Source: Candidatus Collierbacteria bacterium
GTDB taxonomy: Bacteria; Patescibacteriota; Microgenomatia; UBA1400; JACPES01
Direction of reading: 5' to 3'
Length of the DNA: 64,000 nucleotides
Assembly: GCA_016219325.1 (NCBI GenBank)
Contig: JACRNH010000003.1
Location: 45,123-109,122, forward strand
A program made the translations under genes and the position numbers. Below the pieces are notes generated by a model. It searched no databases. It saw only the letters and a list, made by a program, of their open reading frames with translations, and was not told where the DNA came from. Shown piece by piece: positions 1-56,005 of this stretch. Numbering within the stretch: the first letter of the stretch is position 1; each line of letters starts with the position of its first letter.

Positions 1-923
1 GGGAGCAATCGATTCCGGGCGGATTATATCTTTTTAGATTCCTCGGCTATTTATGGGTGATTGTTAATGCCGAAAAACTATTGGCTCCGGTTAAAAAATT
101 TATAATCCCGGCTTTTTGGATCTTTGTAATTTTGGCTTGGGCCCAGTATTTGCTTTTGCCGGACATCAGATTTTTGCTTAAATTCGGATGGGACGAGCAT
201 TATTACCGGATGATCGGAACGGTTTTGGATCCGAATTATTTGGGGGTGATGCTGGGAATTATGGGAATATATTTAATATACAAATATGCAAATAGACAAA
301 TAGACAAATGGGAGAAAATCCTATTGGCATTGTCTTTTGGCGGATTGGCGCTGACTTATTCTAGGGCGAGTTGGGTGGCTACGGTGGTTGTTAGTTGTTG
401 GTTGTTGGTTGTTAGTAGGGGGCATAGAAATAAATTAGGGAAATTGGGGATATTAGGGATATTAGGGATAATTGGAATAATGGGAATATGGCTGGCGGCG
501 CCAAAGCCCGGTGGGGAAGGAATTAATTTATTGAGAACAAGTTCGATTGAGCAGAGAGTCGAGAGTTGGAGGGAAGGAATAAATGTTTGGCGGGAACATC
601 CGTGGTTGGGAGTGGGGTTTAATAATTACGGGGGAAAAGTACAAGAAAGTACAATAAAGTACAAAAATGTACAAGAAGGAAAAAATCATAGTGAAAACGC
701 TCCGAGCAGCAGTTGGATTTTACTTTTGGCAACGGTGGGGACAATTGGGATAGGGGGATTAGGGGTAATAGGGGGGATAAGGGGGATAGGGGAGATGAAG
801 AAAAATAAATTGTGGATGGGAATTTTGATGATGGTTGGGGTTCACGCGATTTTTAACAACACCATTTTTTATCCGCCGATTTTGGGATTGTTGGCTTTGA
901 TTAAGGCTGCCAGCGAAGAATGA
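1..923 (+). CDS. O-antigen ligase (Wzy_C)-like polytopic membrane protein, 5' partial. The reading frame is open to the window start and the ORF track starts at GTG 57.
   Basis: Hydrophobic polytopic sequence with a YSRASW motif typical of the Wzy_C/O-antigen ligase domain. It also carries in-frame low-complexity inserts (GILGILGIIGIMGI, KVQESTIKYKNVQEGK, GTIGIGGLGVIGGIRGIG). Confidence 0.55.
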   Translation, partial: EQSIPGGLYLFRFLGYLWVIVNAEKLLAPVKKFIIPAFWIFVILAWAQYLLLPDIRFLLKFGWDEHYYRMIGTVLDPNYLGVMLGIMGIYLIYKYANRQIDKWEKILLALSFGGLALTYSRASWVATVVVSCWLLVVSRGHRNKLGKLGILGILGIIGIMGIWLAAPKPGGEGINLLRTSSIEQRVESWREGINVWREHPWLGVGFNNYGGKVQESTIKYKNVQEGKNHSENAPSSSWILLLATVGTIGIGGLGVIGGIRGIGEMKKNKLWMGILMMVGVHAIFNNTIFYPPILGLLALIKAASEE

Positions 924-5236: not shown

Positions 5237-7036
5237 ATGGTTATGCAGGAGATTTCTAACAATCAAACAATCGCTCAAATGCTATTTGAGGTAGCCGCGG
5301 TTTTAGAAGTAACCGGAGGAGACAGGTTTAGAATCCGGGCATATCAAGAGGCTGCTAAATCCATCGAAAGTTATCCGGCAGAGATCCGCGATTTATGGGA
5401 ACATGGGAATTTGGGAGACGTTTCCAGCGTCGGCAAAGCCATTTCCGGTTATTTGGATGAATTTTTTAAAACAGGCAGAATAAAACATTTTGAGCCGATC
5501 ATAAAAAGAGTTCCTGCAGGAATGTTCCCTTTGCTAAATGTTAGCGGAATCGGTCCCAAGACAGCTTTTGCGCTTTCCAAAGAATTGGGACTGGTAAAGT
5601 CCAAGATGGCAGTTGCAAAACTTAAGAAGGCTGCTTTGGACGGTAAAATAGCCAAAATTGAGGGATTTGGGGAAGACTCGCAGGCCAAGATCTTGTCAGC
5701 AATCAAAGAATCCGAGTCCAGAGAAGACAAAATGCTTTTGCCTGTAGCTCGGGAACTGGCCGATAAAGTAATTGATTATCTAAAGAAGCAACCCGATGTT
5801 GTAAAAATTGAGGTATTAGGCAGCTTAAGAAGACAAATGGCTCTGGTCGGAGATATTGATATAGGAGTTGCCGCTTCAAATCCAAAGGAAATTACAGACT
5901 GGTTTATTAAATTCCCTGAATTCATAAAAATATTGGTGAGCGGGGACAAAGTTTGCCGGGCGGTTCACCGTACCGGAAGGCAAGTTGACTTAAAAATTGA
6001 GCCGGTTGAAAGTTTTGGTTCAATGCTGCAGCATTTTACCGGCAGTAAGGAGCATAATATCGCTTTGAGAGAATTGGCCCTGAAGAAAGGGTTGTCGTTG
6101 TCGGAGCATGGGATAAAGATAATGAGTAATGAGAAGAAAGTAATGAGCAATGATAAACAACTAGTAAATTTCAAAACGGAAGAGGAATTCTATAAAGCTC
6201 TTGGGATGGAGTGGATTCCGCCGGAGCTGCGGGAAAACAGGGGGGAGATTGAGGCTAGTAAAGAAGGTAAGTTGCCAGAACTGATAGGGTTATCAGATAT
6301 TAAAGGTGATTTTCATATCCATTCCGACTTTGACATTGAAACCAGTCATGATCTGGGGGTTTCGGGTTTAATTTATTTGACAAAAGAAGCTGAAAAAATG
6401 GGATACGAATTTATCGCCATATCTGATCACAATCCGTCTACTTCCCGGCATAATAATAAGCAAATAATTGACCTTATAAAGCGAAGAAATGAATATATTG
6501 ATAAATTTTTATCCTCGCGTGTGAACGTTGTGAAAATTAAATTATTTAAATCCCTCGAAATAGATATATCCGGCGATGGATCAATCGCTATTCCGGACGC
6601 GGCATTGGAACTTTTGGATTTTGTCATTGTCTCAATTCACAGTCAGTTTGTTGGTGACGAGAGCAAGCAAACGGCCAGAATTTTAAAAGCGCTTTCCCAT
6701 CCTAAAGTAAAAATTCTGGGCCATCCGACCGGTAGACAGCTGTTAAACCGGAACGGAATCAATTGCGATTGGGATCAGATATTTGATTATTGCGCCAAAA
6801 AGAATATTTGGCTGGAGGTGAATGGTAATCCGCATAGAATGGATTTGCCGGATCAGTTAATTCAGAAAGCTAAAGGTTTCGGAGTGAAATTTACAATTGG
6901 GACGGATAGTCATGCTTTTTCTCAAATGGAATACATGCCATCTGGCGTTTCTTTGGCTAGAAGGGGTTGGCTTGAGAAGAAAGATGTGATAAATTGTTTA
7001 GGATATAATGAAGTGAAGAAAGAATTTAATCCTTAA
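5237..7036 (+). CDS. polX: PolX-family DNA polymerase (Pol beta-like core plus C-terminal PHP domain)
   Basis: N-terminal HhH/pol-beta region and a C-terminal PHP motif (FHIHSDFD). The ORF-track start at 5168 overlaps tRNA-Asp, so ATG 5237 is used. It carries an in-frame AGTAATGAG-family repeat insert at 6120-6160 (KIMSNEKKVMSNDKQ). Confidence 0.8.
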   Translation: MVMQEISNNQTIAQMLFEVAAVLEVTGGDRFRIRAYQEAAKSIESYPAEIRDLWEHGNLGDVSSVGKAISGYLDEFFKTGRIKHFEPIIKRVPAGMFPLLNVSGIGPKTAFALSKELGLVKSKMAVAKLKKAALDGKIAKIEGFGEDSQAKILSAIKESESREDKMLLPVARELADKVIDYLKKQPDVVKIEVLGSLRRQMALVGDIDIGVAASNPKEITDWFIKFPEFIKILVSGDKVCRAVHRTGRQVDLKIEPVESFGSMLQHFTGSKEHNIALRELALKKGLSLSEHGIKIMSNEKKVMSNDKQLVNFKTEEEFYKALGMEWIPPELRENRGEIEASKEGKLPELIGLSDIKGDFHIHSDFDIETSHDLGVSGLIYLTKEAEKMGYEFIAISDHNPSTSRHNNKQIIDLIKRRNEYIDKFLSSRVNVVKIKLFKSLEIDISGDGSIAIPDAALELLDFVIVSIHSQFVGDESKQTARILKALSHPKVKILGHPTGRQLLNRNGINCDWDQIFDYCAKKNIWLEVNGNPHRMDLPDQLIQKAKGFGVKFTIGTDSHAFSQMEYMPSGVSLARRGWLEKKDVINCLGYNEVKKEFNP

Positions 7037-7738: not shown

Positions 7739-7816
7739 GTCATTCCGAGCGAGTGAAACGAGCGTGGGAATCTAATTTAAGATTGCCACGTCCCGTTTGA
7801 CGGGACTCGCAATGAC
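7739..7816. repeat. MITE/REP-like element copy after lemA (divergent internal stems)
   Basis: GTCATTCCGAGCGAGTGAAACGAGCGTGGGAATCTAATTTAAGATTGCCACGTCCCGTTTGACGGGACTCGCAATGAC. Confidence 0.65.
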
Positions 7817-8779: not shown

Positions 8780-10924
8780 ATGCCCAACAACGATTTCAAT
8801 CCACAAGATTTATTTAAGCCTTCCGTTCCCAAAGAGGCTTTGGAAAAATATACGATTAATTTAACCAGAATGGCGCAGGAAGGGAAACTGGACCCGGTCA
8901 TCGGCAGGGATCAGGAAATCAGACGGATTATGCAGGTTTTATCGCGCCGAACCAAAAATAATCCGGTTTTAATCGGCGATCCTGGCGTTGGAAAAACCGC
9001 GTTGGTTGAAGGTTTGGCGTTGCGGATTGCTAACCGCGACGTTCCTGATTCTTTGGCCAACAAACAGCTATTGATTTTAGATTTGGCTTCGGTTTTGGCC
9101 GGAGCAAAATTCAGGGGTGAATTTGAAGAGCGATTAAAGGCAATTCTAAAAGGAGTGGAAGACAGCCGCGGAGAATATATTTTATTTATTGACGAATTGC
9201 ATACGCTGGTCGGAGCCGGCGGAGCAGAAGGAGCGGTTGATGCTTCAAACATTATGAAGCCGGGGCTAGCCAGAGGGTTATTGAGAGTAATTGGAGCAAC
9301 CACGATCAATGAATACCGGAAATATGTTGAAAAAGATGCCGCGTTGGAACGCAGATTTCAGCCGGTTTTGGTTGATGAACCTGTTCCGGAAGATGCGGTG
9401 GCAATTTTACGCGGGATAAAGGAAAAATATGAAGTACATCATGGCATCAGGATTAGCGACGATGCAATTTTGGCCGCGGTTCGGTTATCTACAAGGTATA
9501 TCCCAGACAGATTTTTACCGGATAAAGCGATTGACTTAATTGACGAAGCCGCGTCTGCTTTGAAAATAGAAACAGAATCTATGCCCGTTGCTTTGGATGA
9601 GCTTAAAAGAAAAATTACTCAACTGGAAATTGAGAAACAGGCATTGAAAAGGGAGAAAGACGGAGAAACTAAGGATAAGGTTAATAGGTTAGATGAGCAA
9701 GTCAAAAGATTAAAGAAAGATGCGGACGGGATTCAGGTTAAGTGGGATTTACAGAGGAAATTAATCAACCAAATCAGGAAAAACCGTGAAGAAATAGAAA
9801 AATTAAGAGGTGAATTGGAACGGGCAGAACGGGAAGTCAGCTTGGAAAAAGCGGCGGAAATTAAGTATGGAAAATTGCCCAAACTGGAAAAGGAAGTTAA
9901 AGAATTGGATTCGGAGTGGGGAAAGATTCCGGATAATGATAAAGTTTTGCGGGAGCAAGTGGAGGAAGAAGATGTTGCTCAAATTGTTTCCCGTTGGACT
10001 GGAATTCCGGTCATTAAATTAGTCGGAGGAGAGCAGGGAAAATTGGTTCATTTGGAGGAAGAATTGGGGAAAAAGGTTGTCGGTCAGGATGAGGCATTAA
10101 AAGCTGTCTCAAATGCTGTCAGGAGATCGCGGGCTGGAATTAAAGAGGAAGGCAAGCCGATCGCGGTTTTTTTATTTTTGGGTCCGACCGGAGTCGGAAA
10201 AACCGAAACAGCCAAGGCTTTAGCTGAATCCTTGTTTGCCGATGAAAATTCGCTGATCAGAATTGATATGAGCGAATATTCTGAACAGCATTCGGTGGCC
10301 AGATTGATCGGGGCTCCTCCCGGATATGTTGGATTTGAAGAAGGCGGTCAGTTGACGGAGGCAGTCAGGAGACGGCCGTATTCGGTTTTATTGTTTGACG
10401 AAATAGAAAAAGCTCATCCGCAGATATTCAATATTTTTCTTCAAATTTTTGACGCGGGCAGGTTAACTGACGGGAAAGGCAGAGCGGTTAATTTTAAAAA
10501 CACGGTGATTATTATGACGAGCAATATTCAAGGGAAAAAGGAAGAAGGAAAAGGGAAGAAGGATGTTGATGATATTATAAAGCAGCTGAGACAGACGTTT
10601 AAGCCGGAGTTTTTGAATAGAATTGATCAAATTGTGTTATATGAATCATTGTCCGAGAAACAATTAACGAAAATTGTAGATATAGAGTTATCGAAAGTTC
10701 AAAATAGATTGACGGAAAAGCAGATTAAACTTGAAGTGAGTAATGATACCAAAAAATATCTGGCCAAAACCGGCTACGATCCGGTTTTTGGTGCCAGGCC
10801 TTTGAAACGATTAATTCAGGATGAGATTTTAGATCCTCTGGCATTAATGATGATTGAGGGGAAAACGAAGGAAAAGTCGGTAGTAAATGTTGGTTTTAGC
10901 TCCGGAAAGATAATCTTTGACTAA
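8780..10924 (+). CDS. clpB: ClpB-type AAA+ disaggregase lacking the N-terminal domain
   Basis: Two AAA+ modules (GDPGVGKT Walker A; GPTGVGKT second Walker A) and a long coiled-coil middle domain. At 714 aa it begins directly with AAA1. Confidence 0.85.
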
Positions 10925-12559: not shown

Positions 12560-12650
12560 TGATTTATGAATTAAGATTTATGATTTATGAATAATAACGG
12601 TCTGATTCTTATATATATAGAATTCATAATTCGTAAATCTTAAATCATTG
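12560..12650. repeat. Imperfect hairpin (GATTTATGAAT-family tandem units in inverted orientation) spanning the gatCA-gatB junction
   Basis: Left arm TGATTTATGAATTAAGATTTATGATTTATGAAT and right arm GAATTCATAATTCGTAAATCTTAAATCA are near reverse complements. Confidence 0.7.
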
Positions 12651-14024: not shown

Positions 14025-14117
14025 AGTATGATTTATGATTTACGAATAATATTAATTTAGTTTTCATAGATTTTCTGATTCATAATTCATAAATCGTAAT
14101 TCTTAATTCATGAATCA
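14017..14117. repeat. Imperfect hairpin of the same GATTTATGAAT family spanning the gatB stop and the dnaE start
   Basis: GATTTATGAAGTATGATTTATGATTTACGAAT ... GATTCATAATTCATAAATCGTAATTC form an inverted repeat. Confidence 0.7.
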
Positions 14118-20081: not shown

Positions 20082-20651
20082 TTAGTTATTAGTTGTTGGT
20101 GATTGGTTATTAGTGGGGGGAATAGAAATTTGACTGCTAAGGTCAATTTTTAATTTTGAAACCGTGCCGGCGGGGAGTTCTAAAACGTAGTTAACGGAAG
20201 AGGGGGAATTGTATAAAGGCAATTTGTCGTCGGTGGCGTTAGTAGGAGGGATAGGCACATTTTTATCAATTCCCGTTATTTTATTGCCGGAAATCCAGAT
20301 GATATCCAAAGGGAACATCATATCTTTCATCCAAAAAGCGGTTTGACGGGGAGGATTAATCTCAAATAACATTCCGTCTGAACCGATTTCATTTCTGTCA
20401 GAAAGCCCCTTTTGGGCTTTTTCGGGAGTTGAGGCAATTTCAACGTTTAATTCAGTATTGCCGACTTTGATTAAGCCGAATTCTGGTTGAAAAGCTGTTT
20501 CGGTTGGAGTAGGGGAAATCGTAACAGGAAAAGCGATGGCTGCAGGAGAAGAATTTAGCGTTTGCTTTTGAATATTTTGTATGGCTTTGGTTGCAAATAA
20601 ACCAGCGATAATCAGAATTAGTGAGAATAGAACCAAGCGCGTTTTATGCAT
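20082..20651 (-). CDS. DUF192 (COG1430) domain protein with an N-terminal signal/TM
   Basis: Signal-like N-terminus plus the conserved DUF192 core (GLSDRNEIGSDGMLFEF...FWMKDMMFPLDIIWI). Confidence 0.65.
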   Translation of the reverse strand: MHKTRLVLFSLILIIAGLFATKAIQNIQKQTLNSSPAAIAFPVTISPTPTETAFQPEFGLIKVGNTELNVEIASTPEKAQKGLSDRNEIGSDGMLFEINPPRQTAFWMKDMMFPLDIIWISGNKITGIDKNVPIPPTNATDDKLPLYNSPSSVNYVLELPAGTVSKLKIDLSSQISIPPTNNQSPTTNN

Positions 20652-29450: not shown

Positions 29451-29454
29451 TTAA

Positions 29455-30838
<1,384 letters not shown>

Positions 30839-30852
30839 TCTGATTATTAATT

Positions 30853-31260
30853 ATGTTACTCCATCTCTCTCTTGCTACTCCTCTTAAGAAAGTTTTAGAG
30901 ATTGACGAAGTTGAAATCGTTAATGCTCCGGCGGAAATGGGTGACGTTGGAATTTTGCCGAATCATGCTCCGTTTATGTCCAGACTTAAAGACGGGGTGA
31001 TAAATTACCGGATCGGGGGAAATAATTTTTATGTCGGAGTTAACGGAGCCTTTATGGATGTAGCCGAAAATCAGGTGACTATAATTTCTGAAGCCGCAAT
31101 TTTGCCGGAGGACGCTGATTTAAAAAGAGCTCAAGAAGCAAGGGATAGGGCGAAGGCTGAATTGGAAAAAAGACTGGAAGGAACAGATTTTAAGATGGTG
31201 GAAGCGGAGTTGAGAAAAGCGCTTTTAGAGATGAAATTATTGGAGCACGTTAAAAAATGA
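30853..31260 (+). CDS. atpC: F0F1 ATP synthase subunit epsilon
   Basis: Size, position and a beta-sandwich plus helical-hairpin pattern consistent with the epsilon subunit. Confidence 0.75.
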   Translation: MLLHLSLATPLKKVLEIDEVEIVNAPAEMGDVGILPNHAPFMSRLKDGVINYRIGGNNFYVGVNGAFMDVAENQVTIISEAAILPEDADLKRAQEARDRAKAELEKRLEGTDFKMVEAELRKALLEMKLLEHVKK

Positions 31261-31337
31261 GTAATGAGTAGAAAGTAATGAGTAATGAATAAAATAACAT
31301 TATTTTCTACTTTCTATTTTCTACTCATTATTTTTTT
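31259..31337. terminator. AGTAATGAG/TAGAAAGTA-family inverted-repeat hairpin followed by a T7 tract (a likely intrinsic terminator after atpC)
   Basis: GAGTAATGAGTAGAAAGTAATGAGTAATGAAT ... ATTATTTTCTACTTTCTATTTTCTACTCATTA then TTTTTTT immediately before the ruvC ATG. Confidence 0.6.
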
Positions 31338-31826
31338 ATGATTATCTTAGGCATTGACCCCGGATTTGCCAGAATGGGATGGGGAGTAATCAGCAAAAAC
31401 GGCGCAAAATTTTCACTGGTAGCTTACGGATGTCTGGAGACTTCTGCCGATGTCGGTTTGCCAGACAGGTTGGAAATGATATTTGACGGGATTCTCAAAG
31501 TAATAAAGAAGTACAAGCCGGATTTGGTCGGCATAGAAACTCTTTTTTTTAACACTAACGCCAAAACCGCGGTCAAGGTAGGGGAGGCGAGGGGAGCGAT
31601 ATTGGTGGCGCTGAAAAAAGCCGGAATTAAATCAGCGGATCTGACTCCTCTTCAAGTGAAACAAGCTGTAGCTGGTTACGGCCGGGCGGAAAAATCTCAA
31701 GTCCAAAAAATGGTTAAGACCTTGTTAAATCTAAAAGAAATCCCCCATCCTGACGACGCCGCCGACGCTTTAGCCATCGCCCTCGCTGCTGGATCAATTG
31801 TAAAGTATCAGATACTTTACAACTAA
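31338..31826 (+). CDS. ruvC: Holliday junction resolvase RuvC. Its last 8 codons are supplied by a palindromic repeat.
   Basis: N-terminal ILGIDPGFARMGWGVI with the catalytic Asp, and C-terminal DDAADALAIAL. The terminal IVKYQILYN is encoded by the 25-bp palindrome at 31798-31822. Confidence 0.85.
   Translation: MIILGIDPGFARMGWGVISKNGAKFSLVAYGCLETSADVGLPDRLEMIFDGILKVIKKYKPDLVGIETLFFNTNAKTAVKVGEARGAILVALKKAGIKSADLTPLQVKQAVAGYGRAEKSQVQKMVKTLLNLKEIPHPDDAADALAIALAAGSIVKYQILYN
31798..31822. repeat. Palindrome copy 1 (TTGTAAAGTATC A GATACTTTACAA), forming the 3' codons of ruvC
   Basis: Perfect 12-bp arms with a 1-nt spacer. Confidence 0.9.
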
Positions 31827-31846
31827 TATTTGCAAATATAGTTCGT

Positions 31847-32575
31847 TTAATCTTCAGCATCAATCGCAACTGGACGAAGAAGCGTTGAATCTGAATTAGA
31901 AAATTGAGCCTCAACAAATTCGCGGTATTCAGTAGGTCTGTTTCTGAATAATCCAATAACAAACTTTGGCTTTGAAATAGAGAAAGGGGTTTTAGTCGGG
32001 AAGAGATAGTAGTCGTTAATATTGCTCCATTGCCAATTTTCCGGTTTGTTAACCAGTCCGGCCATGGTAGGGTTAATATGGATATATCTGGATACATGCA
32101 TGACTCGTTCGTCCGTATCTAGTTCTTTGATCTTAAACCTTCCCTGAAATAGCGGCCCAACTCGTTGATTATCGTGATTAAATTTATGAGCGTATGTTAT
32201 TCCAATCCGTTTCATGAATTCCGAGATTGGAGACTGTAAAGTATCTGATACTTTACAGATGCGAATAAGGAAATGGAAATGGTTTGGCATTAAACAATAA
32301 GCCAGAAGTTCGATAATGTTTTTGAACATACCGTTGCCTTTAGGATCAGCTGTAAACGAAACAGGCTTATTTTTCATTCTCCAGCGCATCGAAAATGGCG
32401 ATTGATGCTGTAAGGTATCAGATACTTTACAGTCAGGGAAGCCAATTAAAAAATAACGCAGAATTTCGCGGAAGTCAAAGTAGTCAGACTCCCTTTTGAA
32501 TATTTTCCGCCTATTTACCCCGCGGTTATAGACATGATAAATTCCGTTTTCGTGATAATCAGGCCTAATATACAT
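31847..32575 (-). CDS. tnpA: IS200/IS605-family Y1 (HUH) transposase / REP-associated tyrosine transposase-like protein
   Basis: YHVYNRGVNRRKIF N-terminal motif, HUH motif (MPNHFHFLI) and the catalytic Tyr region (RYIHINP). The ORF-track start at 32836 is a stop-free upstream extension, so ATG 32575 is used. Confidence 0.75.
   Translation of the reverse strand: MYIRPDYHENGIYHVYNRGVNRRKIFKRESDYFDFREILRYFLIGFPDCKVSDTLQHQSPFSMRWRMKNKPVSFTADPKGNGMFKNIIELLAYCLMPNHFHFLIRICKVSDTLQSPISEFMKRIGITYAHKFNHDNQRVGPLFQGRFKIKELDTDERVMHVSRYIHINPTMAGLVNKPENWQWSNINDYYLFPTKTPFSISKPKFVIGLFRNRPTEYREFVEAQFSNSDSTLLRPVAIDAED
32234..32258. repeat. Palindrome copy 2 (CTGTAAAGTATC T GATACTTTACAG), in-frame inside tnpA and encoding CKVSDTLQ
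   Basis: Perfect 12-bp arms. Confidence 0.9.
32408..32432. repeat. Palindrome copy 3 (CTGTAAGGTATC A GATACTTTACAG), in-frame inside tnpA and encoding CKVSDTLQ
   Basis: 12-bp arms with 1 mismatch. Confidence 0.9.
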
Positions 32576-32586
32576 ATGTGGATAAG

Positions 32587-32609
32587 TGTAAAGTATCAGA
32601 TACTTTACA
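32587..32609. repeat. Palindrome copy 4 (TGTAAAGTATC A GATACTTTACA), 12 nt upstream of the tnpA ATG
   Basis: Perfect 11-bp arms. Confidence 0.9.
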
Positions 32610-32696
32610 AGAAGACAAGATGCGAGAACGTCTATCGGTTGGATAGAACTATCGGGTGAGTAGAATAAAGCGACCAGAATAATAATTTTACGAAAT

Positions 32697-33113
32697 GTGG
32701 TATATTTGCTACATATGTCAGTAGACGAGTTACGGATAAGTTTAGCCGATGTCCTTGGGTCTAAGAAATGTAGCCAGGACCAGTGGATGATCGCACCGCA
32801 TCTTACAAAGTCCGGAAAAGACCTTAGAATTGCCACGTCTGTAAAAAATCATTTTGATAAGCTGCACCGAGAACAGCCTTTTAGAAGTTCGACATCAGCC
32901 CTTCGCGATGACCTTCGGCAATTAACGCTTACTGAAACAAACGTAATTTTAGATTCATTTGAATCTCTTAAGCCTGAAGAGTCTCAGAATCAATTATTAT
33001 ATCCAGCTTTCAGAGAAGTCATAATCGCCGCTCATGAGGCAGACGTAGTTGATAAACATCGACTATTGGGAAAATTTGCCGTTTCGCTTCTTCGATTGGT
33101 AGATAGCGAATAA
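32697..33113 (+). CDS. hypothetical protein between the IS element and ruvA
   Basis: A 138-aa ORF with no recognizable motifs. Confidence 0.3.
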   Translation: MVYLLHMSVDELRISLADVLGSKKCSQDQWMIAPHLTKSGKDLRIATSVKNHFDKLHREQPFRSSTSALRDDLRQLTLTETNVILDSFESLKPEESQNQLLYPAFREVIIAAHEADVVDKHRLLGKFAVSLLRLVDSE

Positions 33114-33149
33114 GCAGTAATTTCAGTTGGATTTTGTTATACTTGAATC

Positions 33150-33719
33150 GTGATAGGGTTCCTTTCGGGAAAACTGCTTGAGTCTGATTTAAACACTATA
33201 ATTATTGATGTTTCGGGAGTGGGATATTTGGTTCATCCCTCAGCTTCTGTTTTCGGAAAAAATTTATCTGTTGGGGATAAAATTAATTTACCGGTTTATA
33301 CCCATGTCCGTGAAGATCAAATTACTTTATTCGGATTTTCATCAAAAGCAGAGTTAGACTTATTTAAGCAATTGCTGACAGTTTCCGGAGTCGGTCCGAA
33401 ATCGGCACTGACAATTATCGGCAGCGGCACAGCTCCTGAAATTAAATCAGCCGTTTCTAACGCCGATGTGGATTTTTTCCAATCAATTTCCGGAATCGGC
33501 AAAAAAACTGCCCAGAGGATAATTATTGATCTGAAAAGTAAAATCGGTGAAACCAAAGAATTGGATTTGTCATCAACTGACATCAAACATCGGAAAGATT
33601 TGTTGTCTGCCCTAAAAACAATGGGAATTACTGCCGATGAGGTCAAAGACGTGATCAAAAATATTGACGCTAATTTGCCGATTCAGGAGCAGATCAGACT
33701 GGCGCTAAAAAGAATATGA
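33150..33719 (+). CDS. ruvA: Holliday junction branch migration protein RuvA
   Basis: N-terminal MIGFLSGKL...GVGY OB-fold start and HhH motifs ([18 protein letters not shown]). Confidence 0.85.
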
Positions 33720-34741
33720 AAGATCAGAAAACAGAGAGCAGAGAACAAAAAGCAGAAGAAATTTTTGATTCATCTCTCCGTCCGAGCAAATTTGACGAAT
33801 TTACCGGTCAGTCACGGGTAATTGAGAATTTAAAGGTTACAATTGAGGCGGCTAAAAACCGCAAAGAGCCTTTGGATCATTTGCTTTTATACGGACCTCC
33901 GGGGTTGGGAAAAACTACTCTTGCCCATATTATCGCGGCTGAAATGGGAGTGAATATCCGAATAACTTCAGGTCCGGCCATTGAAAGATCAGGCGATTTA
34001 GCCAGTATTTTAACCAATTTACAAGAGGGAGACATTTTATTTATTGATGAAGTCCACCGCTTGCATAAAGTTGTTGAGGAAATGCTTTATCCGGCAATGG
34101 AGGATTTCGCCTTGGATATTATTTTAGGAAAAGGTCCGTCTGCCCGGACCGTCAGGCTGGATCTGCCGAAGTTTACTTTAATCGGAGCCACCACCAGAGT
34201 CGGTTTGATCGGATCGCCGATGAGGGACAGATTTGGGATTATCCACCGCCTGAATTTTTATGAAGATGAGGAATTGTGCCATATTGTTAAGCGTTCATCT
34301 AGGCTATTGAAAATGGAAGTAGATCAAGAATCTGCTCTGGAAGTTGCCAAAAGAAGCAGGGGTACTCCCAGAATTGCCAATAGGCTTTTAAAACGTTCGC
34401 GTGATTTCAGCCAAGTCAGATTTAAGGGGCTGCTAAACAGAAATGTGGTTGACAAGGCTTTGCAATTAATGGGGGTGGATTTATTGGGATTGGATGAATC
34501 CGACAGAAGGATTTTATCGGCCATCATCAATAAACATGGCGGCGGACCGGTAGGAGTAGAAACGATTGCAGCCACAGCCCATGAAGACATCGGAACGATC
34601 GAAGATGTGTTTGAGCCGTTCCTGATGCAAATTGGATTTTTAAAACGGACTCCGCGGGGCAGGGTGGCGACAAAAAAAGCTTACCAACATCTTGGTTTAT
34701 CTTATCCTCAATCTGGCACAGGGCAGGAATCGTTGCTTTAA
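33716..34741 (+). CDS. ruvB: Holliday junction branch migration helicase RuvB
   Basis: [11 protein letters not shown] start, Walker A ([11 protein letters not shown]), Walker B (FIDEVHRL) and RuvB-C winged helix. It overlaps ruvA by 4 nt. Confidence 0.9.
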
Positions 34742-34742
34742 T

Positions 34743-34818: not shown

Positions 34819-34827
34819 AATGACAAT

Positions 34828-35787: not shown

Positions 35788-36202
<415 letters not shown>

Positions 36203-50399: not shown

Positions 50400-52169
50400 A
50401 TGAAATCTGAAATATCCATTAAAGTCGGCGGGCCGGCCGGGGCGGGGGTTAAATCAGTCGGGCAGATATTGGCTAAAACTTTACAAAGATCTGGTTTTCA
50501 GGTATTTGAGTATCCGGAATATCCGAGTTTAATCCGCGGCGGGCATAATACTGAATTGGTGCAGGCTTCACTCGGAGAAAAATATTCCCTCACAAAACCG
50601 GTGGATTTACTGATCGCTCTTGACGATAAAACCCTGAAATTAGATTTGCCGGAAGTTGTTTCCGGCGGAATGGTAATTTTCGATTCCAAAATTGAATTTA
50701 AGCCAAGTCCCTCCAAAATTATCTATTTATCTATTCCGCTGTCTGATATCGCTCAAAAATTAGGAAATCCGTTGATGGCCAATGTAGTGGCGGTTGGCGC
50801 GGGATTGAAAGTCATGGGATTAAGTACTTTAATGACATCCAAATTGCTGACTGATCAGTTTTTTAAAAAAGGCCCTGATGTTGTCGCGGCAAATATTAAA
50901 GCCCTCGAAGCCGGTTGGAACTTTGTTAAAGAAAAAGGCTTCAAACCTATTTTGGATTCTGTGGATGTGAAGCCTTCAAATAATTTAATGATGACTGGAA
51001 ACGAAGCATTATCTTTAGGAGCAATCTCTGCCGGATTGGGTCTGTACGCCGCGTATCCGATGACTCCGTCAACCCCGATTCTGCATTATTTATCTGCTCA
51101 TCAGCAGGAATTTGGGTACGTTGTCCGGCAGGCGGAAGACGAAATATCCGCCGTCAATATGATAATAGGCGCGATGCACATGGGCGTGAGGGCGATGTGC
51201 GGAACTTCCGGCGGGGGATTTGCTTTAATGAACGAATCTTTGGCTTTAGCGGGGATGACGGAAACGCCGTTGGTAGTTGTCCTTGTTCAACGTCCGGGTC
51301 CGGCGACCGGCTTGCCAACCTGGACTGAACAGGGAGAACTGCAATACGCGATTCATGCCGCTCATGGGGAATTTTTAAAATTTGTTTTAGCCCCCGGGGA
51401 TAACAGGGAAATATTCCAAATGGCTTTTGAAGCTTTTAATTTAGCGGAAAGATATCAGACGCCGGCGATTATTATGCTGGATAAATTTCTATCGGAATCT
51501 TCCATGACCTGCGGAAACTTATTTCCCGACAAATTTACCATTGACAGAGGTAAAATTTCTGATCCGCTTAAATTAAAAAGGACACAAAATTATCAGCGTT
51601 ATCAGTTAACGGACGACGGTATTTCCGAAAGAAGTTTGCCGGGAATGGAAGGTGGAGTATTTTGCGCTAACTCCGACGAGCATGAGTACCATGGACTGGT
51701 TGACGAATCTTCTTCAATGAGAATTTGGCAAGTTGATAAGAGATTAAAGAAAATGGATGCGGCAGCAAAAATGATGCCGGGACCTAAATTTATTGGACCA
51801 AAGAACGCTAAAATTACCATTGTGGCTTGGGGATCGGGAAAATTGGCAGGGATAGAAACGATGGAGATGATAAACAATGAGCAGAAAACAAAGAACAATG
51901 AACAAAGAGTCAAAAACAGAGTAAACGTTTTACACTTTAGCTACCTCTGGCCGATGAATGTCAAGGCGGTAAGCGAAGCTCTGAAAAATTGCGCTCCTTC
52001 AACGTTATTGATTGAGCAAAATGCAACCGGACAATTTCAGGCATTATTAAAAGAGCAAATTGGTTGGGAACCAACGGCCCATTTAAGGAAGTACGATGGC
52101 AGGCCTTTTTACGCGGAAGAAATTATTGGAAAGATTGATAAATTAGTTAATGGATTAATGGATTCATGA
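50400..52169 (+). CDS. 2-oxoacid:ferredoxin oxidoreductase, fused gamma-alpha subunit
   Basis: N-terminal gamma domain (IKVGGPAGAGVKSVGQIL) and alpha domains I-II. There is an in-frame repeat insert at 51874-51930 (NEQKTKNNEQRVKNRV). Confidence 0.8.
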   Translation: MKSEISIKVGGPAGAGVKSVGQILAKTLQRSGFQVFEYPEYPSLIRGGHNTELVQASLGEKYSLTKPVDLLIALDDKTLKLDLPEVVSGGMVIFDSKIEFKPSPSKIIYLSIPLSDIAQKLGNPLMANVVAVGAGLKVMGLSTLMTSKLLTDQFFKKGPDVVAANIKALEAGWNFVKEKGFKPILDSVDVKPSNNLMMTGNEALSLGAISAGLGLYAAYPMTPSTPILHYLSAHQQEFGYVVRQAEDEISAVNMIIGAMHMGVRAMCGTSGGGFALMNESLALAGMTETPLVVVLVQRPGPATGLPTWTEQGELQYAIHAAHGEFLKFVLAPGDNREIFQMAFEAFNLAERYQTPAIIMLDKFLSESSMTCGNLFPDKFTIDRGKISDPLKLKRTQNYQRYQLTDDGISERSLPGMEGGVFCANSDEHEYHGLVDESSSMRIWQVDKRLKKMDAAAKMMPGPKFIGPKNAKITIVAWGSGKLAGIETMEMINNEQKTKNNEQRVKNRVNVLHFSYLWPMNVKAVSEALKNCAPSTLLIEQNATGQFQALLKEQIGWEPTAHLRKYDGRPFYAEEIIGKIDKLVNGLMDS

Positions 52170-53776: not shown

Positions 53777-56005
53777 ATGTTTAAACTACATTCACCATAT
53801 CAACCGACGGGGACACAACCGCAGGCAATTGCCAAACTTTCTGAATTGATTTCCGGAGGAAACCGGCATCAAACCCTGCTCGGGGTGACCGGTTCCGGCA
53901 AAACATTTGTGACGGCAAATGTTATCGCTAAACTTAATAAACCGACTTTGGTTATCGCCCACAATAAAACTTTAGCCGCTCAATTGTATCAGGAGTATAG
54001 GGATTTTTTCCCGGAAAACGCGGTTTCCTATTTTGTCAGCTATTACGACTATTATCAGCCGGAGGCCTATATTCCCCAGACCGACACTTATATCGAAAAG
54101 GAAACAGATATAAATGAAATGATTGATAAATTGAGGTTAAAAGCCACCGCCAATCTGGTTTCCCGCCGAGATGTGATAGTTGTTGCTTCCGTTTCTTGCA
54201 TTTATAACTTGGGAGAACCGCAGGAATATTTAAAGAGAGTTTTGAAATTGAGTCTGGGCCAGAAAATCACTTTGAGAGAGCTATCCGAAAAACTAGTTGA
54301 TTTAATGTACGTAAGATCGCAGATGGAATTATCAAGGTCAAACTTTAGAATCAGAGGAGACTGTTTGGATATCTGGCCGGCATACGAGGATTCGGTATTG
54401 AGAATTGAGATTGTGTCAGACAAAATAAAATCGATTTGTTGGCTCGACCCTATTTCTCTATTTCCTGATCCAAAACTAATAACTAATAACCAACAACCAA
54501 CAACTGTTGCTATTTACCCCGCCAAACACTACATTGCCGATTCTAAAGATATGCTGCCGGTATTTGCCCGGATTAGAAATGACCTGCGTTTAAGGGCAAA
54601 ACAATTAGAGGCAGGCGGCCGTGATCTGGAGGCAAAAAGATTGGTTCAAAAAGTGGAATATGATTTAGCGATGATTCAGGAATTGGGATACGTCAACGGG
54701 ATTGAAAATTATTCCCGTTACTTTGACCACCGTAATCCCGGCGATCCGCCATTTACTTTATTGGACTATTTTAAACAGTGCGATCCGAATTTTTTAACGG
54801 TTATTGACGAATCCCACATCACTCTTCCGCAGATAAAAGGAATGTTTAAAGGCGACCAGTCACGGAAACAAACATTGATTGATTTTGGTTTTAGATTGCC
54901 GGCTGCAATGGATAACCGGCCATTGCAATTTGATGAATTTTTGGGAAGAGTTAATCAGACGATTTATACGTCGGCAACGCCGGGAGATTGGGAGTTGGCA
55001 AAAAGCAATGAGCAGAAAACAAAGAGCAATGAGCAAAGAACAAATAGCAACAGAGTTGTGGAATTGTTGGTTAGACCGACGGGATTGATTGACCCGGAAA
55101 TTGAGGTTAGAAACGCCCAAAATCAGGTTCCGGATTTGGTGATGGAAATTTTAAAGCGCAAAGCCAAGAATGAGCGGGTTCTGGTGACGACTTTGACAAA
55201 AAAAACCGCTGAAGCCCTGGCTGAATATTTATCGGATGAAAATAAATTAAAAACTGTTATCGGTTCTCGGTCATCGGATTTCGGTTACCAGTCTTCCGGT
55301 TATCAGTTTGCCGGTCTTAAGACCGATAGACTGAAAACAGATAAACCTGAGACTGAAAACAGAAAACTGAAAACCGATAACAAATCTATATCTGATTTGC
55401 CCAAAGTGGCTTATCTCCACTCCGATATCAAAACCCTCGACCGTCAGGATACTTTGGATAAGTTGAGAAGGGGAGAAGTGGACGTGATTGTCGGGATCAA
55501 CCTATTGCGGGAAGGTTTGGATCTACCGGAAGTATCACTGGTTGCGATATTAGACGCCGATCAGGAAGGATTTTTAAGAAGCAAGACGAGCTTAATCCAA
55601 ACTATGGGGAGAGCCGCTCGTCATATTGACGGAAAAGTTATTCTTTATGCCTATAAAATCACCGATTCAATGAGCGAAGCGATTGATGAATCTGAAAGAA
55701 GACGGAAGGTTCAGATTGAATATAACTTGAAGCATAATATTTTCCCAAAGGGGATAAATAAGCCGGTGAGGGAGAAGTTAGTTGATAGAAGTCAGGAATT
55801 GGTGGCTGAAATTGATTTGCCGAAAGGAATCTCCAATAGATACGGGGTTAAAAAATTGGATGATTTAGATTTGAATTCTTTGTCTCCGCAGGATAAACAG
55901 TCAATGATCAAACATTTAAGAAAACAAATGCTGTCTGCCGCCGATAAACTAAACTTCGAAAAGGCGGCTGAAATTAGAGATAAAATCACAGAAATGAAAA
56001 GTTAA
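53777..56005 (+). CDS. uvrB: Excinuclease ABC subunit B with two in-frame repeat inserts
   Basis: Walker A (GVTGSGKTFV), helicase motifs and a C-terminal UvrB/UvrC interaction motif (EKAAEIRDKI). The inserts are at 55003-55060 and 55255-55385. Confidence 0.9.
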   Translation: MFKLHSPYQPTGTQPQAIAKLSELISGGNRHQTLLGVTGSGKTFVTANVIAKLNKPTLVIAHNKTLAAQLYQEYRDFFPENAVSYFVSYYDYYQPEAYIPQTDTYIEKETDINEMIDKLRLKATANLVSRRDVIVVASVSCIYNLGEPQEYLKRVLKLSLGQKITLRELSEKLVDLMYVRSQMELSRSNFRIRGDCLDIWPAYEDSVLRIEIVSDKIKSICWLDPISLFPDPKLITNNQQPTTVAIYPAKHYIADSKDMLPVFARIRNDLRLRAKQLEAGGRDLEAKRLVQKVEYDLAMIQELGYVNGIENYSRYFDHRNPGDPPFTLLDYFKQCDPNFLTVIDESHITLPQIKGMFKGDQSRKQTLIDFGFRLPAAMDNRPLQFDEFLGRVNQTIYTSATPGDWELAKSNEQKTKSNEQRTNSNRVVELLVRPTGLIDPEIEVRNAQNQVPDLVMEILKRKAKNERVLVTTLTKKTAEALAEYLSDENKLKTVIGSRSSDFGYQSSGYQFAGLKTDRLKTDKPETENRKLKTDNKSISDLPKVAYLHSDIKTLDRQDTLDKLRRGEVDVIVGINLLREGLDLPEVSLVAILDADQEGFLRSKTSLIQTMGRAARHIDGKVILYAYKITDSMSEAIDESERRRKVQIEYNLKHNIFPKGINKPVREKLVDRSQELVAEIDLPKGISNRYGVKKLDDLDLNSLSPQDKQSMIKHLRKQMLSAADKLNFEKAAEIRDKITEMKS

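What the first reader, a model, noticed from the sequence alone, without database searches (positions are those of the whole stretch)
6120..6160. The AATGAG(T/C)AGAAA repeat family sits in frame in PolX and also builds the intergenic terminator hairpins
The PolX coding segment AATGAGTAATGAGAAGAAAGTAATGAGCAATG (encoding IMSNEKKVMSN) is nearly identical to one arm of the intergenic hairpin after atpC, GAGTAATGAGTAGAAAGTAATGAGTAATGAAT at 31259-31334. It is also related to the hairpin after eno (44718-44797) and to the tandem AGTAGAAA run at 36156-36202. The uvrB/OFOR insert is built from the same AATGAGCAGAAA units. One repeat superfamily therefore supplies intergenic hairpins, which are probably terminators, and also colonizes ORFs in frame.
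Basis: seen in the sequence. Interest (0 to 1): 0.8.

Follow-up and report, generated by a model that had tools for sequence, protein, structure and literature searches.

The report
Heptamer repeats in hairpins and genes
A candidate-phylum (Collierbacteria) bacterium carries a family of 7-base tandem repeats that form long RNA hairpins filling the gaps between genes and that also, in stop-codon-free versions, sit in frame as floppy surface loops in PolX, UvrB and an oxidoreductase; this is an unusual variant of known bacterial repeat phenomena, not a new kind of system.

Summary
The PolX tract (6120-6153) matches one arm of the atpC|ruvC hairpin at 31/33 nt, and the OFOR and uvrB inserts match each other at 32/34 nt; chance expects zero. 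The true unit is 7 nt (AGYAATG/AGYAGAA/AACAAAG), not 12. The window (Ca. Collierbacteria, CPR) is saturated with short-period arrays: 27 period-7 tracts against about 1.6 in shuffles. T-type (non-coding) and C-type (coding) are one family. In relative L084 the orthologous atpC|ruvC hairpin is built of C-type units, and 7 of 36 stem positions have changed on both sides with pairing kept. T-type arms carry stops in all three frames; coding copies are stop-free variants read in one shared register, at variable surface loops (AF2: the only pLDDT<50 stretch in PolX). "Terminator" is doubtful: the L084 ortholog has no U-tail, the window's U7 pairs with atpC's Lys codons, and the stems enclose the upstream stop and downstream start. 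"Colonises" is only partly right: the PolX and OFOR sites hold heptamer arrays in all relatives, so slippage in old arrays and inter-locus copying both contribute. A RAYT transposase lies 0.5 kb away, but its flanking palindrome is different. Verdict: new variant of known kinds (heptamer SSR/STRR, TAACTGA arrays, RPE/intragenic REPs).

The parts
6120..6153 (+). In-frame heptamer array in PolX (about 4.9 units, TAATGAG/AGAAGAA). It encodes (I)MSNEKKVMSND at the tip of a thumb beta-hairpin loop. It is a single arm and does not fold.
   Evidence: 31/33 nt to the atpC arm, with the same unit order; about 10 aa extra compared with T. thermophilus PolX; absent from orthologs; the only pLDDT<50 stretch; the only open frame is the one used.
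31249..31342 (+). T-type hairpin filling the atpC|ruvC spacer. The 5' arm is 31256-31292 (AGTAATG/AGTAGAA units) and the 3' arm is 31298-31334. The atpC stop TGA (31258-31260) lies in the 5' foot, and U7 followed by the ruvC ATG (31338) lies in the 3' foot.
   Evidence: I17; dG -29.2, z -7.0; 8 kcal/mol more stable on the sense strand, 5 G-U pairs; ortholog in L084; compensatory changes.
36146..36199 (+). Single-arm T-type array (7.7 units of AGTAGAA/AATAGAA). It overlaps the stop codon of the metallopeptidase-like ORF (ends 36161) and ends at the holA start (36203).
   Evidence: D7; I7: 85% complementary to the 3' arm at 31294-31334; no fold; about 4 units at the orthologous junction in L084.
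44711..44802 (+). T-type hairpin filling the eno|pgm spacer. The 5' arm is 44718-44753 and the 3' arm is 44765-44801. The eno stop TAG (44715-44717) lies in the 5' foot, and the pgm ATG is at 44808.
   Evidence: I13; the 22-nt stretch 44718-44739 is identical to 31256-31277; dG -32.6, z -7.15; the orthologous spacer of L046 holds a hairpin of other heptamers (TCTTGAA/ATCAAGA).
51872..51918 (+). In-frame C-type array in the OFOR alpha subunit (AACAATG AGCAGAA AACAAAG ...), encoding NNEQKTKNNEQRVKNR.
   Evidence: all four genomes carry a heptamer array at this site, with the C-type ortholog in L057, AACAAGA units in L046 and CAACTAA units in L047.
54998..55055 (+). In-frame C-type array in UvrB (site 2, residues about 409-422, KSNEQKTKSNEQRTNSN). 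It shows a 21-nt (3-unit, 7-aa) higher-order period.
   Evidence: period 21, 87% match; 14-aa insert compared with all solved UvrB structures; absent from the closest orthologs P0122-P0130; short versions in others; L057 is 21 nt shorter.
33719..33757 (+). Weak C-type-like array at the RuvB N-terminus ([15 protein letters not shown]).
   Evidence: L084 has a different low-complexity N-terminus. Membership in the family is tentative.
55255..55382 (+). Another family, same behaviour: a complete 128-nt hairpin in frame in UvrB (site 3, residues 488-542). Its arms are TCGGTTA-type and TAACYGA-type heptamers.
   Evidence: I2; dG -51.4, z -7.2; the same element type sits at site 2 in P0134/P0143; other palindromes occupy site 3 in other lineages.
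12560..12648 (+). Another family: the TGATTTA/ATGAATT heptamer hairpin in the gatCA|gatB spacer. A sister copy lies at 14013-14117 (gatB|dnaE).
   Evidence: (D9, D17, I25). Near-identical copies lie at different spacers in L046 (OFORa|b) and L057 (lexA|uvrB).
31847..32836 (-). RAYT-like Y1 (HUH) transposase gene next to the atpC|ruvC hairpin. It is flanked and interrupted in frame by a 27-nt palindrome (31799-31821, 32235-57, 32409-31, 32587-609). It is a candidate mobilising enzyme, but no link to the heptamer family has been shown.
   Evidence: Pfam Y1_Tnp; NCBIfam REP_Tyr_transpos, E 8.8e-17, below the curated cut-off. The gene is absent at this place in L084.

Best explanation
The PolX segment is one copy of a lineage-specific family of heptanucleotide simple-sequence arrays (units AGYAATG, AGYAGAA, AACAAAG). 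The host is a Candidatus Collierbacteria genome in which arrays with periods of 7-10 nt are pervasive.

Shown:
(a) Period 7 is about 17-fold over-represented.
(b) Copies at unlinked loci share 31-32 of 33-34 nt, including the order of the units.
(c) In spacers between co-directional genes the arrays occur as inverted pairs. In the mRNA sense these fold into AU-rich hairpins of 30-45 bp that span from the upstream stop codon to the downstream start codon.
(d) The atpC|ruvC hairpin is kept between two genomes that are about 80% identical, although its arms are only 64% and 42% identical. U-A pairs are replaced by C-G pairs, which turns the non-coding T-type into the C-type found in ORFs.
(e) T-type arms have stop codons in all three frames. 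Coding copies are stop-free variants (TAG to AAG or CAG, TAA to CAA), all in the purine-rich orientation and in one shared register (AAT GAG NAG AAA).
(f) Coding copies lie at length-variable surface loops.

Inferred:
- The arrays grow, shrink and homogenise by replication slippage. In ORFs this happens in 21-nt (3-unit, 7-aa) steps.
- Sequence moves between arrays by ectopic copying, either gene conversion or template switching between similar arrays, or an unidentified transposition.
- Inverted arms arise by fold-back copying.
- The spacer hairpins are maintained because they act in RNA, as an mRNA 3'-end barrier or attenuator, or as a device that keeps the stop and start codons of formerly overlapping genes next to each other. 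They are not classical terminators.
- The ORF copies are tolerated passengers that add hydrophilic, disordered loop residues.
For: Period and excess: (27 period-7 tracts against 1.6 in triplet shuffles). Non-random identity between loci: (D2, D5, I7, I10, I12). Folding: (seven of eight STR hairpins are 4-9 kcal/mol more stable on the transcribed strand). Link between the T and C types, and structural conservation: (12 unchanged pairs, 5 changed on one side, 7 changed on both sides with pairing kept; slid-partner controls give 1-5). The spacer hairpin is an insertion: atpC and ruvC overlap by 4 nt in L086 and L088. Frame and stop logic. Loop location. Slippage signatures: unit-step length differences between orthologs, and perfect arrays of different units at the same gatB site. 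Same family at different spacers in different genomes, and different families at the same spacer. Heptamer excess, and arrays with stops in three frames that abut stop and start codons, are described elsewhere (PMC4679880, PMC4692102).
Against: No transcript, 3'-end or translation data exist, so every functional statement about the hairpins is inference. The covariation rests on two sequences of a periodic, low-complexity element, and slid-partner controls already give up to 5 'compensatory' pairs. Changes can also spread among units in concert, so the independent events may be as few as one or two. The L084 hairpin is more stable on the antisense strand, and sense-strand bias could simply reflect purine-rich 5' arms. 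The copying mechanism is unidentified. Only 64 kb of this genome and 13-44 kb of each relative were seen, and the genome is not in the GTDB representative set. In the sampled loci the T/C family was found only in this genome, L084 and L057.
Confidence: 0.55

Rival explanations
1. The hairpins are non-autonomous mobile elements (MITE/REPIN-like). A Y1/HUH transposase, such as the RAYT encoded at 31847-32836, cuts and pastes them as ssDNA hairpins. The ORF tracts are half-elements or decayed insertions.
For: A RAYT-like gene lies 0.5 kb from the atpC|ruvC hairpin. Palindromes of several families are inserted in frame in the RAYT gene itself and in ruvC, uvrB and uvrC. The TGATTTA hairpin family is nearly invariant at four different spacers in three genomes whose surrounding DNA is about 78% identical. 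The atpC|ruvC hairpin was inserted into a formerly overlapping junction. Intragenic REPs in repair genes, and RAYT-REP associations, are documented (PMC3733652, PMC3116915).
Against: The RAYT is flanked by a different 27-nt palindrome that occurs only at that locus. T-type arms are all-purine arrays that are not palindromic themselves, unlike REPs, and the GTAG they contain sits inside the stem rather than as an unpaired tag. No terminal inverted repeats or target-site duplications were seen. Copies differ in whole-unit steps, as slippage would produce. L084 has the hairpin but no RAYT at that place.
Confidence: 0.15
2. One reading: the intergenic hairpins are rho-independent terminators, and that is why they are kept. 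The ORF copies are incidental.
For: The stems are strong and more stable on the transcribed strand, and the window's atpC|ruvC stem is followed by U7. The hairpins lie downstream of ORFs between co-directional genes. Canonical GC-rich terminators are scarce in the region, 9 against 19 in shuffles, so something else may do the job.
Against: The orthologous L084 hairpin has its U-run in the loop and none after the stem. The window's U7 pairs with atpC's AAAAAA. In 6 of 8 cases the upstream stop codon lies inside the 5' foot of the stem, and in 6 of 8 the downstream start codon lies inside or within 5 nt of the 3' foot, which leaves no room for a promoter or a ribosome-binding site. The gene pairs concerned (atpC-ruvC, gatCA-gatB-dnaE, OFOR alpha-beta) look co-transcribed, and atpC/ruvC overlap in the relatives. 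None is flagged by the consensus scan.
Confidence: 0.2
3. There is no family. Each tract arose independently by local slippage at permissive sites, and the resemblance reflects shared purine-rich, hydrophilic-codon composition.
For: The PolX, OFOR and gatB sites hold heptamer arrays in all relatives, with different units. The sharing of 11-mers among tracts is no higher within genomes than between them, 0.93% against 0.72%. Heptamer slippage is a general bacterial bias (PMC4679880, citing Mrazek 2007).
Against: Matches of 31/33 and 32/34 nt between unlinked loci, with the same order of non-identical units, against zero matches in 100 shuffles. A 22-nt stretch is identical between the two hairpins. 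A 45-nt copy that includes a non-repeat flank occurs at 387-431 and 20085-20129 (D18). L084 has a C-type hairpin at the orthologous T-type site.
Confidence: 0.08

Closest known systems
Heptanucleotide long simple-sequence repeats, and the cyanobacterial STRR and Xanthomonas GGGAATC arrays (Mrazek 2007 as cited in PMC4679880; PMC4692102)
   Same: Tandem 7-nt units, many loci per genome, mostly intergenic, length and sequence varying between close relatives, some in inverted pairs. Period 7 dominates all other periods.
   Different: The units are different. The host is a CPR/Patescibacteria genome. The arrays are regularly organised as stop-to-start hairpins, and stop-free variants of the same family lie in frame in housekeeping genes.
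TAACTGA heptamer arrays of Beggiatoaceae, Cyanobacteria and Bacteroidetes (MacGregor 2015, PMC4679880)
   Same: The unit carries stop codons, so three units close all three frames. The arrays overlap the stop codon of the upstream ORF and end a few nt before the next start codon. Reverse or variant copies occur inside ORFs as 7-aa repeats, mostly at protein ends or outside domains. The same unit vocabulary turns up in unrelated phyla (here).
   Different: The T-type unit is AGTAATG/AGTAGAA, not TAACTGA. Only the uvrB site-3 hairpin has TAACYGA-like units, matching 6 of 7 positions. The TAACTGA arrays are direct repeats with no predicted structure, whereas here most spacer copies are inverted pairs that form long hairpins.
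Rickettsia palindromic elements (RPE) and intragenic REPs (PMC3733652; the original RPE work is recalled from memory)
   Same: Palindromic repeats are inserted in frame in conserved proteins, including uvrB and other repair genes. They sit at loops or linkers, with the same families also found in intergenic DNA. Different elements or sites are used in different lineages.
   Different: The PolX, OFOR and uvrB-2 tracts are single-armed tandem arrays rather than palindromes, and they change length in 21-nt steps. Only the uvrB site-3 hairpin, the uvrC insert and the RAYT and ruvC palindromes are RPE-like in the strict sense.
REP/REPIN elements with RAYT transposases (PMC3116915, PMC3337134, PMC3479197)
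   Same: Hairpin-forming repeats of about 80-100 nt lie between co-directional genes. A RAYT-like gene is present in the window and is flanked by palindromes.
   Different: Each T-type arm is a purine-only array, not an imperfect palindrome. The RAYT's flanking palindrome is unrelated to the T-type hairpins. There is no unpaired GTAG or CGTC tag.
Tandem repeats in Borg elements that create disordered protein regions (PMC9879509)
   Same: The repeats evolve fast, occur both in intergenic DNA and in ORFs, and add low-complexity, probably disordered protein segments.
   Different: In-ORF Borg units are multiples of 3 nt. Here the unit is 7 nt, so the protein repeat is 7 aa per 3 units, and only one frame is usable.

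Membership tests
Heptanucleotide LSSR / STRR-type tandem repeats | Head-to-tail units of 7 nt, three or more copies | tested here: met
   TRF gives period 7 at 6120-6153 (4.9 copies), 31256-31292 (5.3), 36146-36199 (7.7) and 54998-55055 (8.1).
Heptanucleotide LSSR / STRR-type tandem repeats | More and longer arrays than expected for the genome's composition, at many loci | tested here: met
   27 period-7 tracts in 64 kb against a mean of 1.6 in triplet-shuffled sequence. Relatives have 5-7 per 22 kb.
TAACTGA-type arrays (MacGregor 2015) | The unit is TAACTGA | tested here: not met
   T/C-type units are AGYAATG, AGYAGAA and AACAAAG. TAACYGA-like units occur only in the uvrB site-3 hairpin.
TAACTGA-type arrays (MacGregor 2015) | Stops in all three forward frames and an open reverse strand; arrays overlap the upstream stop codon and abut the downstream start | tested here: met
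   T-type 5' arms have 1-4 stops in each forward frame and 0 on the reverse strand. The stop codons of atpC, eno and the metallopeptidase-like ORF lie in or at the array, and the ruvC, pgm and holA starts lie 0-6 nt after it.
REP / REPIN-RAYT system | Each repeat unit is a 20-40 nt imperfect palindrome; a REPIN is two such units in inverted orientation | tested here: not met
   T-type arms are purine-only arrays with no self-complementarity; the single arms at 6100-6175 and 36130-36215 do not fold. The hairpin exists only through the pairing of the two arms.
REP / REPIN-RAYT system | A RAYT gene flanked by copies of the same repeat | tested here: not met
   A RAYT-like gene is present, but it is flanked by a different 27-nt palindrome that is confined to that locus.
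REP / REPIN-RAYT system | An unpaired GTAG or CGTC tag at one end of the stem (PMC3733652) | tested here: inconclusive
   GTAG occurs in every AGTAGAA unit but inside the stem rather than as an unpaired tag. Whether a RAYT could use it cannot be decided from sequence.
RPE-like / intragenic REP insertions | In-frame insertion into a conserved protein, absent from orthologs, at a surface loop | tested here: met
   PolX: about 10 aa extra compared with solved structures, not shared by orthologs, and lying in the only pLDDT<50 stretch. UvrB-2: 14 aa, absent from P0122-P0130. Caveat: the PolX and OFOR sites carry other arrays in relatives.
RPE-like / intragenic REP insertions | The inserted element is itself palindromic | tested here: not met
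   The PolX, OFOR and uvrB-2 tracts are single-armed. The feature is met only by the other families: the uvrB site-3 hairpin, the uvrC insert and the 27-nt palindrome in the RAYT gene and ruvC.
Rho-independent (intrinsic) terminator | A short GC-rich stem immediately followed by an unpaired U-tract, at the end of a transcription unit | tested here: not met
   The stems are 30-45 bp and AU-rich. The U7 in the window pairs with A6, and the L084 ortholog has no U-tract after its stem. The consensus scan flags none. The downstream start codon lies in the 3' foot. Actual termination cannot be tested here.
MITE | Terminal inverted repeats and target-site duplications | tested here: inconclusive
   The whole element is an inverted repeat, and no distinct TIR or TSD was recognised at the atpC|ruvC junction when it was compared with the empty junctions of L086 and L088. 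Only one junction could be compared.
Known RNA families (Rfam 15) | A match at the gathering threshold | tested here: not met
   Only five tRNAs were found in the window, and nothing at any hairpin.

The most novel reading that the evidence does not exclude
The stop-to-start hairpins built from 'three-frame-stop' heptamer arrays may be a functional module rather than junk. Under this reading, a stem that puts the upstream stop codon and the downstream start codon side by side preserves translational coupling (termination followed by re-initiation or ribosome shunting across 70-130 nt) after an element lands in a formerly overlapping gene junction. The same unit vocabulary (AG + stop codon + RR) would recur convergently in hairpins of unrelated phyla because it serves this role. 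The same arrays, once their stops are mutated away, would be a steady source of new disordered loops in housekeeping proteins of CPR bacteria.
Probability: 0.1. Interest if true: 0.8.

Novelty: new variant of a known kind. Interest (0 to 1): 0.5.

Why it matters
It joins two phenomena that are usually treated separately: heptanucleotide simple-sequence arrays, and in-frame 'selfish' insertions in conserved proteins. It does so in a small CPR genome where about 92% of the DNA is coding. Single T-to-C transitions convert a non-coding, stop-laden hairpin unit into a translatable one. The case also gives a natural example of a hairpin being maintained while its sequence turns over. If the hairpins prove functional, they would bear on how gene expression is organised in Patescibacteria, where canonical terminators appear scarce. 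If they are selfish or neutral, they show how much repeat turnover a minimal genome tolerates, even inside PolX, UvrB, UvrC, RuvB, RuvC, GatB and OFOR. A practical point: such inserts inflate protein lengths and can mislead annotation and alignment of CPR proteins.

Tried and rejected
(1) I proposed that each genome has its own repeat vocabulary, meaning concerted evolution among dispersed arrays within a genome. The formal test rejected this: tracts share 11-mers at 0.93% within genomes and 0.72% between them, and several families are shared between genomes at non-orthologous sites.

(2) The GTDB scan with the T-type 18-mer did not find the window's own genome, so no genome-wide census was possible.

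(3) The JGI metagenome scan with the C-type 19-mer gave 33 hits. Almost all were chance matches (MSRKQR-type gene starts, no 7-nt periodicity), and only L057 was a true ortholog.

(4) Contig extension beyond the window yielded only about 5 kb.

(5) Covariation could not be measured through the alignment tools. MAFFT puts the periodic 3' arms one unit out of structural register, so the pairs were counted by script.

(6) Covariation in the TGATTTA hairpin family: none, because the four copies are nearly invariant.

(7) Rfam found only tRNAs. The consensus terminator and promoter scan gave nothing at the hairpins, and promoter-like sites were at chance level.

(8) My first pairing of window ORFs with the relatives' GatA and GatB was wrong, because the window has an extra ClpB-like gene. 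It was redone.

(9) A link between the RAYT and the T-type hairpins through a shared flanking repeat was not found.

(10) One literature query was swamped by the STRRIDE and StrR acronyms. No paper on heptamer arrays or REP/RAYT in CPR turned up, and absence from this library is not proof of absence.
Full report
**1. Observation**

The PolX tract 6121-6153 differs from the atpC-proximal hairpin arm 31256-31288 at 2 of 33 positions, and no match occurred in 100 shuffles. The OFOR and uvrB inserts differ at 2 of 34 positions. The 12-mer AATGAGYAGAAA, allowing one mismatch, occurs 10 times against 1.05 expected.

The real period is 7 nt, not 12 or 8 (TRF). I call the units AGTAATG/AGTAGAA 'T-type'. 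They occur in PolX, in both arms of the atpC|ruvC and eno|pgm hairpins, and in the single-arm array at 36146-36199. I call AGCAATG/AGCAGAA/AACAAAG 'C-type'. They occur in OFOR and uvrB, and weakly at the RuvB N-terminus. Independent assemblies reproduce the PolX and UvrB proteins exactly (P0001; L089), so this is not an assembly artefact.

**2. Organism and context**

The window comes from a Candidatus Collierbacteria (Microgenomates, CPR/Patescibacteria) contig of 123,865 nt. It is packed with short-period arrays: 27 period-7, 11 period-8 and 8 period-9 tracts, against 1.6, 1.6 and 2.0 in triplet-shuffled controls.

At least six array families occur at several loci and in both orientations, in spacers and in ORFs. 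There are also two palindrome families: a REPIN-like GTCATTCC...GGAATGAC element, and a 27-nt palindrome. Spacers between co-directional genes are regularly filled by one hairpin of either kind. The finding is therefore one family within a genome-wide habit.

**3. Hairpins**

The atpC|ruvC and eno|pgm copies fold at -29.2 and -32.6 kcal/mol (z about -7). The single-arm PolX and 36.1-kb tracts do not fold.

Seven of eight hairpins built of short tandem repeats (STR) are 4-9 kcal/mol more stable on the transcribed strand, through G-U pairs.

In 6 of 8 cases the upstream stop codon lies inside the 5' foot of the stem. In 6 of 8 the downstream start codon lies inside or within 5 nt of the 3' foot. 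Rfam has nothing at these places.

**4. One family, and a maintained structure**

Relative L084 is about 80% identical in DNA over window 24.9-40.1 kb. At the orthologous atpC|ruvC spacer it has a hairpin whose 5' arm reads AACAATG AACAGAA AGCAGAA AACAATG, which are C-type units. This ties the non-coding T-type to the coding C-type.

In the common ungapped register, 12 of 36 stem positions are unchanged, 5 changed on one side, 7 changed on both sides with pairing kept, and 12 are unpaired in one genome. Four of the seven double changes are the U-A to C-G switch at position 3 of successive units. Slid-partner controls give 1-5. The arms are only 64% and 42% identical between the genomes.

I read this as moderate evidence that the stem is maintained. 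There are only two sequences, the element is periodic, and changes may spread among units in concert.

In L086 and L088 atpC and ruvC overlap by 4 nt. The hairpin was therefore inserted into a formerly coupled junction, in the ancestor of the window and L084.

**5. Terminator reading**

This is doubtful, for five reasons:
- L084 has its U-run in the loop and none after the stem.
- The window's U7 is the complement of atpC's terminal AAAAAA and pairs with it.
- The downstream start codons are sequestered in the stem, with no room for a promoter or a Shine-Dalgarno sequence.
- The gene pairs concerned look co-transcribed.
- The consensus scan flags none of the hairpins, and canonical terminators are rarer than in shuffles, 9 against 19.

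An RNA-level role as a 3' barrier, an attenuator or a coupling device is possible but untested.

**6. Coding copies**

T-type 5' arms have stops in all three forward frames and none on the reverse strand. The PolX tract has exactly one open frame, and that frame is the one used. It differs from the atpC arm at TAG to AAG, which removes the in-frame stop, and at a synonymous AGT to AGC. C-type units are T-type units with TAA to CAA and TAG to CAG. PolX, OFOR and UvrB all read AAT GAG NAG AAA in the same register.

- **PolX:** compared with solved structures it has about 10 extra residues in a thumb beta-hairpin loop. An AlphaFold2 model (mean pLDDT 91) has its only pLDDT<50 stretch at residues 298-303, the tip of that loop.
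- **UvrB:** it has a 14-aa insert at the heptamer tract, a small insert made of AACTAAC heptamers, and a 52-aa insert that is a complete 128-nt hairpin lying in frame (dG -51, z -7.2).

**7. Insertion or old array?**

The picture is mixed:
- **PolX:** the segment is found only in the identical P0001. Orthologs at 79-83% identity carry other sequences of other lengths at this loop, often 7-aa periodic, while distant orthologs have a minimal loop. At DNA level the site is a heptamer array in all three genomes compared: window TAATGAG, L001 AGAGAAC/AACAGGA, L003 GGCTAAG.
- **OFOR:** the site holds an array in all four genomes. L057 has the C-type ortholog (about 90% identical, against 76% for the flanks), L046 has AACAAGA units and L047 has CAACTAA units.
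- **UvrB site 2:** it is empty in the closest orthologs (P0122-P0130) and short in others. It is 21 nt shorter in L057, and the window array has a 21-nt higher-order period.
- **gatB:** the window and L003 have a perfect (AATTCAG)4.6 where L001 has a perfect (AGGTTAC)3.9.

These are signatures of slippage and concerted drift in long-lived arrays at permissive sites.

Other observations argue that sequence also moves between loci:
- near-identity of unlinked copies, with the same order of non-identical units;
- a 45-nt copy that includes a unique flank (D18);
- the same family at different spacers in different genomes, and different families at the same spacer;
- the near-invariance of the TGATTTA hairpin at four spacers in three genomes.

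My idea of a genome-specific vocabulary failed its test.

**8. A possible engine**

ORF 31847-32836 (minus strand) is a RAYT-like Y1 transposase: Pfam Y1_Tnp, and NCBIfam REP_Tyr_transpos with E 8.8e-17, below the curated cut-off. It has YHVYNRG, HUH (NHFHFL) and YIHINP motifs.

It is flanked by a 27-nt palindrome that is also inserted in frame twice within it (read as CKVSDTLQ) and that supplies the C-terminal tail of RuvC. The palindrome is confined to this locus, and the gene is absent at this place in L084.

The genome thus encodes hairpin-specific ssDNA machinery, but nothing links it to the heptamer family. The T-type arms are not palindromic themselves, and they carry no unpaired GTAG tag (PMC3733652).

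**9. Wider occurrence**

The exact T-type 18-mer occurs in 41 GTDB genomes from many phyla. In 16 of them it lies in a period-7 array of AGTAATG/AGTAGAA/AGTAAAA/AGTGAAA-type units, and 10 lie in strongly folding contexts (z at or below -3). The C-type 19-mer control gives 2 of 33 and 0 of 33.

Each such unit is AG + stop codon + two purines. Because 7 mod 3 = 1, three units close all three frames. This parallels the TAACTGA arrays of MacGregor 2015 (PMC4679880).

**10. Comparison with the known, and verdict**

- Heptamer excess is known (Mrazek 2007, via PMC4679880; PMC4692102).
- Arrays with stops in three frames that overlap stop codons and abut start codons are known (PMC4679880).
- In-frame palindromic repeats in uvrB, uvrA and other repair genes are known (PMC3733652).
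- REPIN-RAYT systems are known (PMC3116915).

The following appear not to have been described, as far as I could find:
- the combination of these features in a CPR genome;
- one heptamer family that supplies both stop-to-start hairpins and stop-free in-frame tracts;
- the T/C switch with compensation between orthologous hairpins;
- the number of housekeeping genes affected.

I rate it a new variant of known kinds, with interest 0.5.

Noticed in passing
window 31847-32836 (-), with palindromes at 31799-31821, 32235-32257, 32409-32431 and 32587-32609: A RAYT-like Y1/HUH transposase gene in a CPR genome. Its own coding sequence carries two in-frame copies of its flanking 27-nt palindrome (each read as CKVSDTLQ). 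A further copy forms the C-terminal tail of RuvC (…SIVKYQILYN, against …SIGTTRF in L084). The gene is absent at this place in L084.
   Followed up: partly
window 55255-55382 (UvrB residues 488-542); P0122, P0125, P0131, P0134, P0135, P0136, P0143, P0147: UvrB site 3 is a hotspot where different palindromic elements sit in frame in different Microgenomates lineages: the TCGGTTA/TAACYGA hairpin, a 'VIPAQAGI' REP type, and a 'SLRATGGSVAIS…SPLDKLGSPHNDN' type. The VIGS…NRKPITDN hairpin type occurs at site 2 in P0134 and P0143. Its units match the TAACTGA repeat of Beggiatoaceae and Cyanobacteria at 6 of 7 positions.
   Followed up: partly
window 61314 to about 61405, inside uvrC (60510-61871): An in-frame REP-like palindromic insert (VIARSPGQIGTTRQSIKDRFPRSLSFARNDK) in UvrC. 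L046 has a different palindromic insert at the same site, and L047 has none.
   Followed up: partly
window 7750-7815, 34732-34842, 41059-41146, 53026-53075, 55993-56074: A REPIN-like palindrome family (GTCATTCC-CGCGAAAGCG-GGAATC … GATTCC…GGAATGAC) fills several spacers. In relative L046 the same type lies in frame in uvrB (IPVKVGIYINS).
   Followed up: partly
window 57-923 (Wzy_C-like ORF): arrays at 275-309, 385-416, 432-489, 636-677, 747-796: One membrane-protein ORF carries five arrays with periods of 7 to 10 nt. The GTTGTTA family is read here as hydrophobic VVSCWLLVV. Its reverse complement in UvrB (54474-54505) is read as hydrophilic TNNQQPT. A 45-nt copy that includes a unique flank recurs at 20085-20129.
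   Followed up: partly
window 12985-13016 (gatB); L003 15519-15550; L001 15543-15569: At the same gatB position the window and L003 have a perfect (AATTCAG)x4.6 array and L001 has a perfect (AGGTTAC)x3.9 array. The array has stayed perfect while its unit changed.
   Followed up: partly
L005-L045 (GTDB genomes of Bacteroidota, Chloroflexota, Acidobacteriota, Cyanobacteria, Halanaerobiales, other CPR): The exact T-type 18-mer lies in heptamer arrays of 'AG + stop codon + RR' units in 16 of 41 unrelated genomes, and some of these have a complementary arm downstream that would make a hairpin. This may be a convergent or horizontally spread vocabulary, as was proposed for TAACTGA.
   Followed up: partly
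window 8780-10924: A ClpB-like AAA+ gene (714 aa) lies between the M48 peptidase gene and gatCA. It is absent at this place in relatives L001 and L003. It lacks the N-terminal domain region and carries GGAAAAA heptamers at 10533-10563.
   Followed up: no
window 52120-52213: The OFOR alpha|beta junction holds a palindrome built of octamers (TTAATGGA / CATTAACG) that extends the alpha subunit's C-terminus. L046 has a TGATTTA-family heptamer hairpin at this spacer, and L057 has almost no spacer.
   Followed up: partly
window 29000-46000: Consensus intrinsic-terminator-like sites are fewer than in shuffled sequence (9 against 19.0 ± 3.7), and sigma-70-like promoter matches are at chance level (40 against 36.7).
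   Followed up: no
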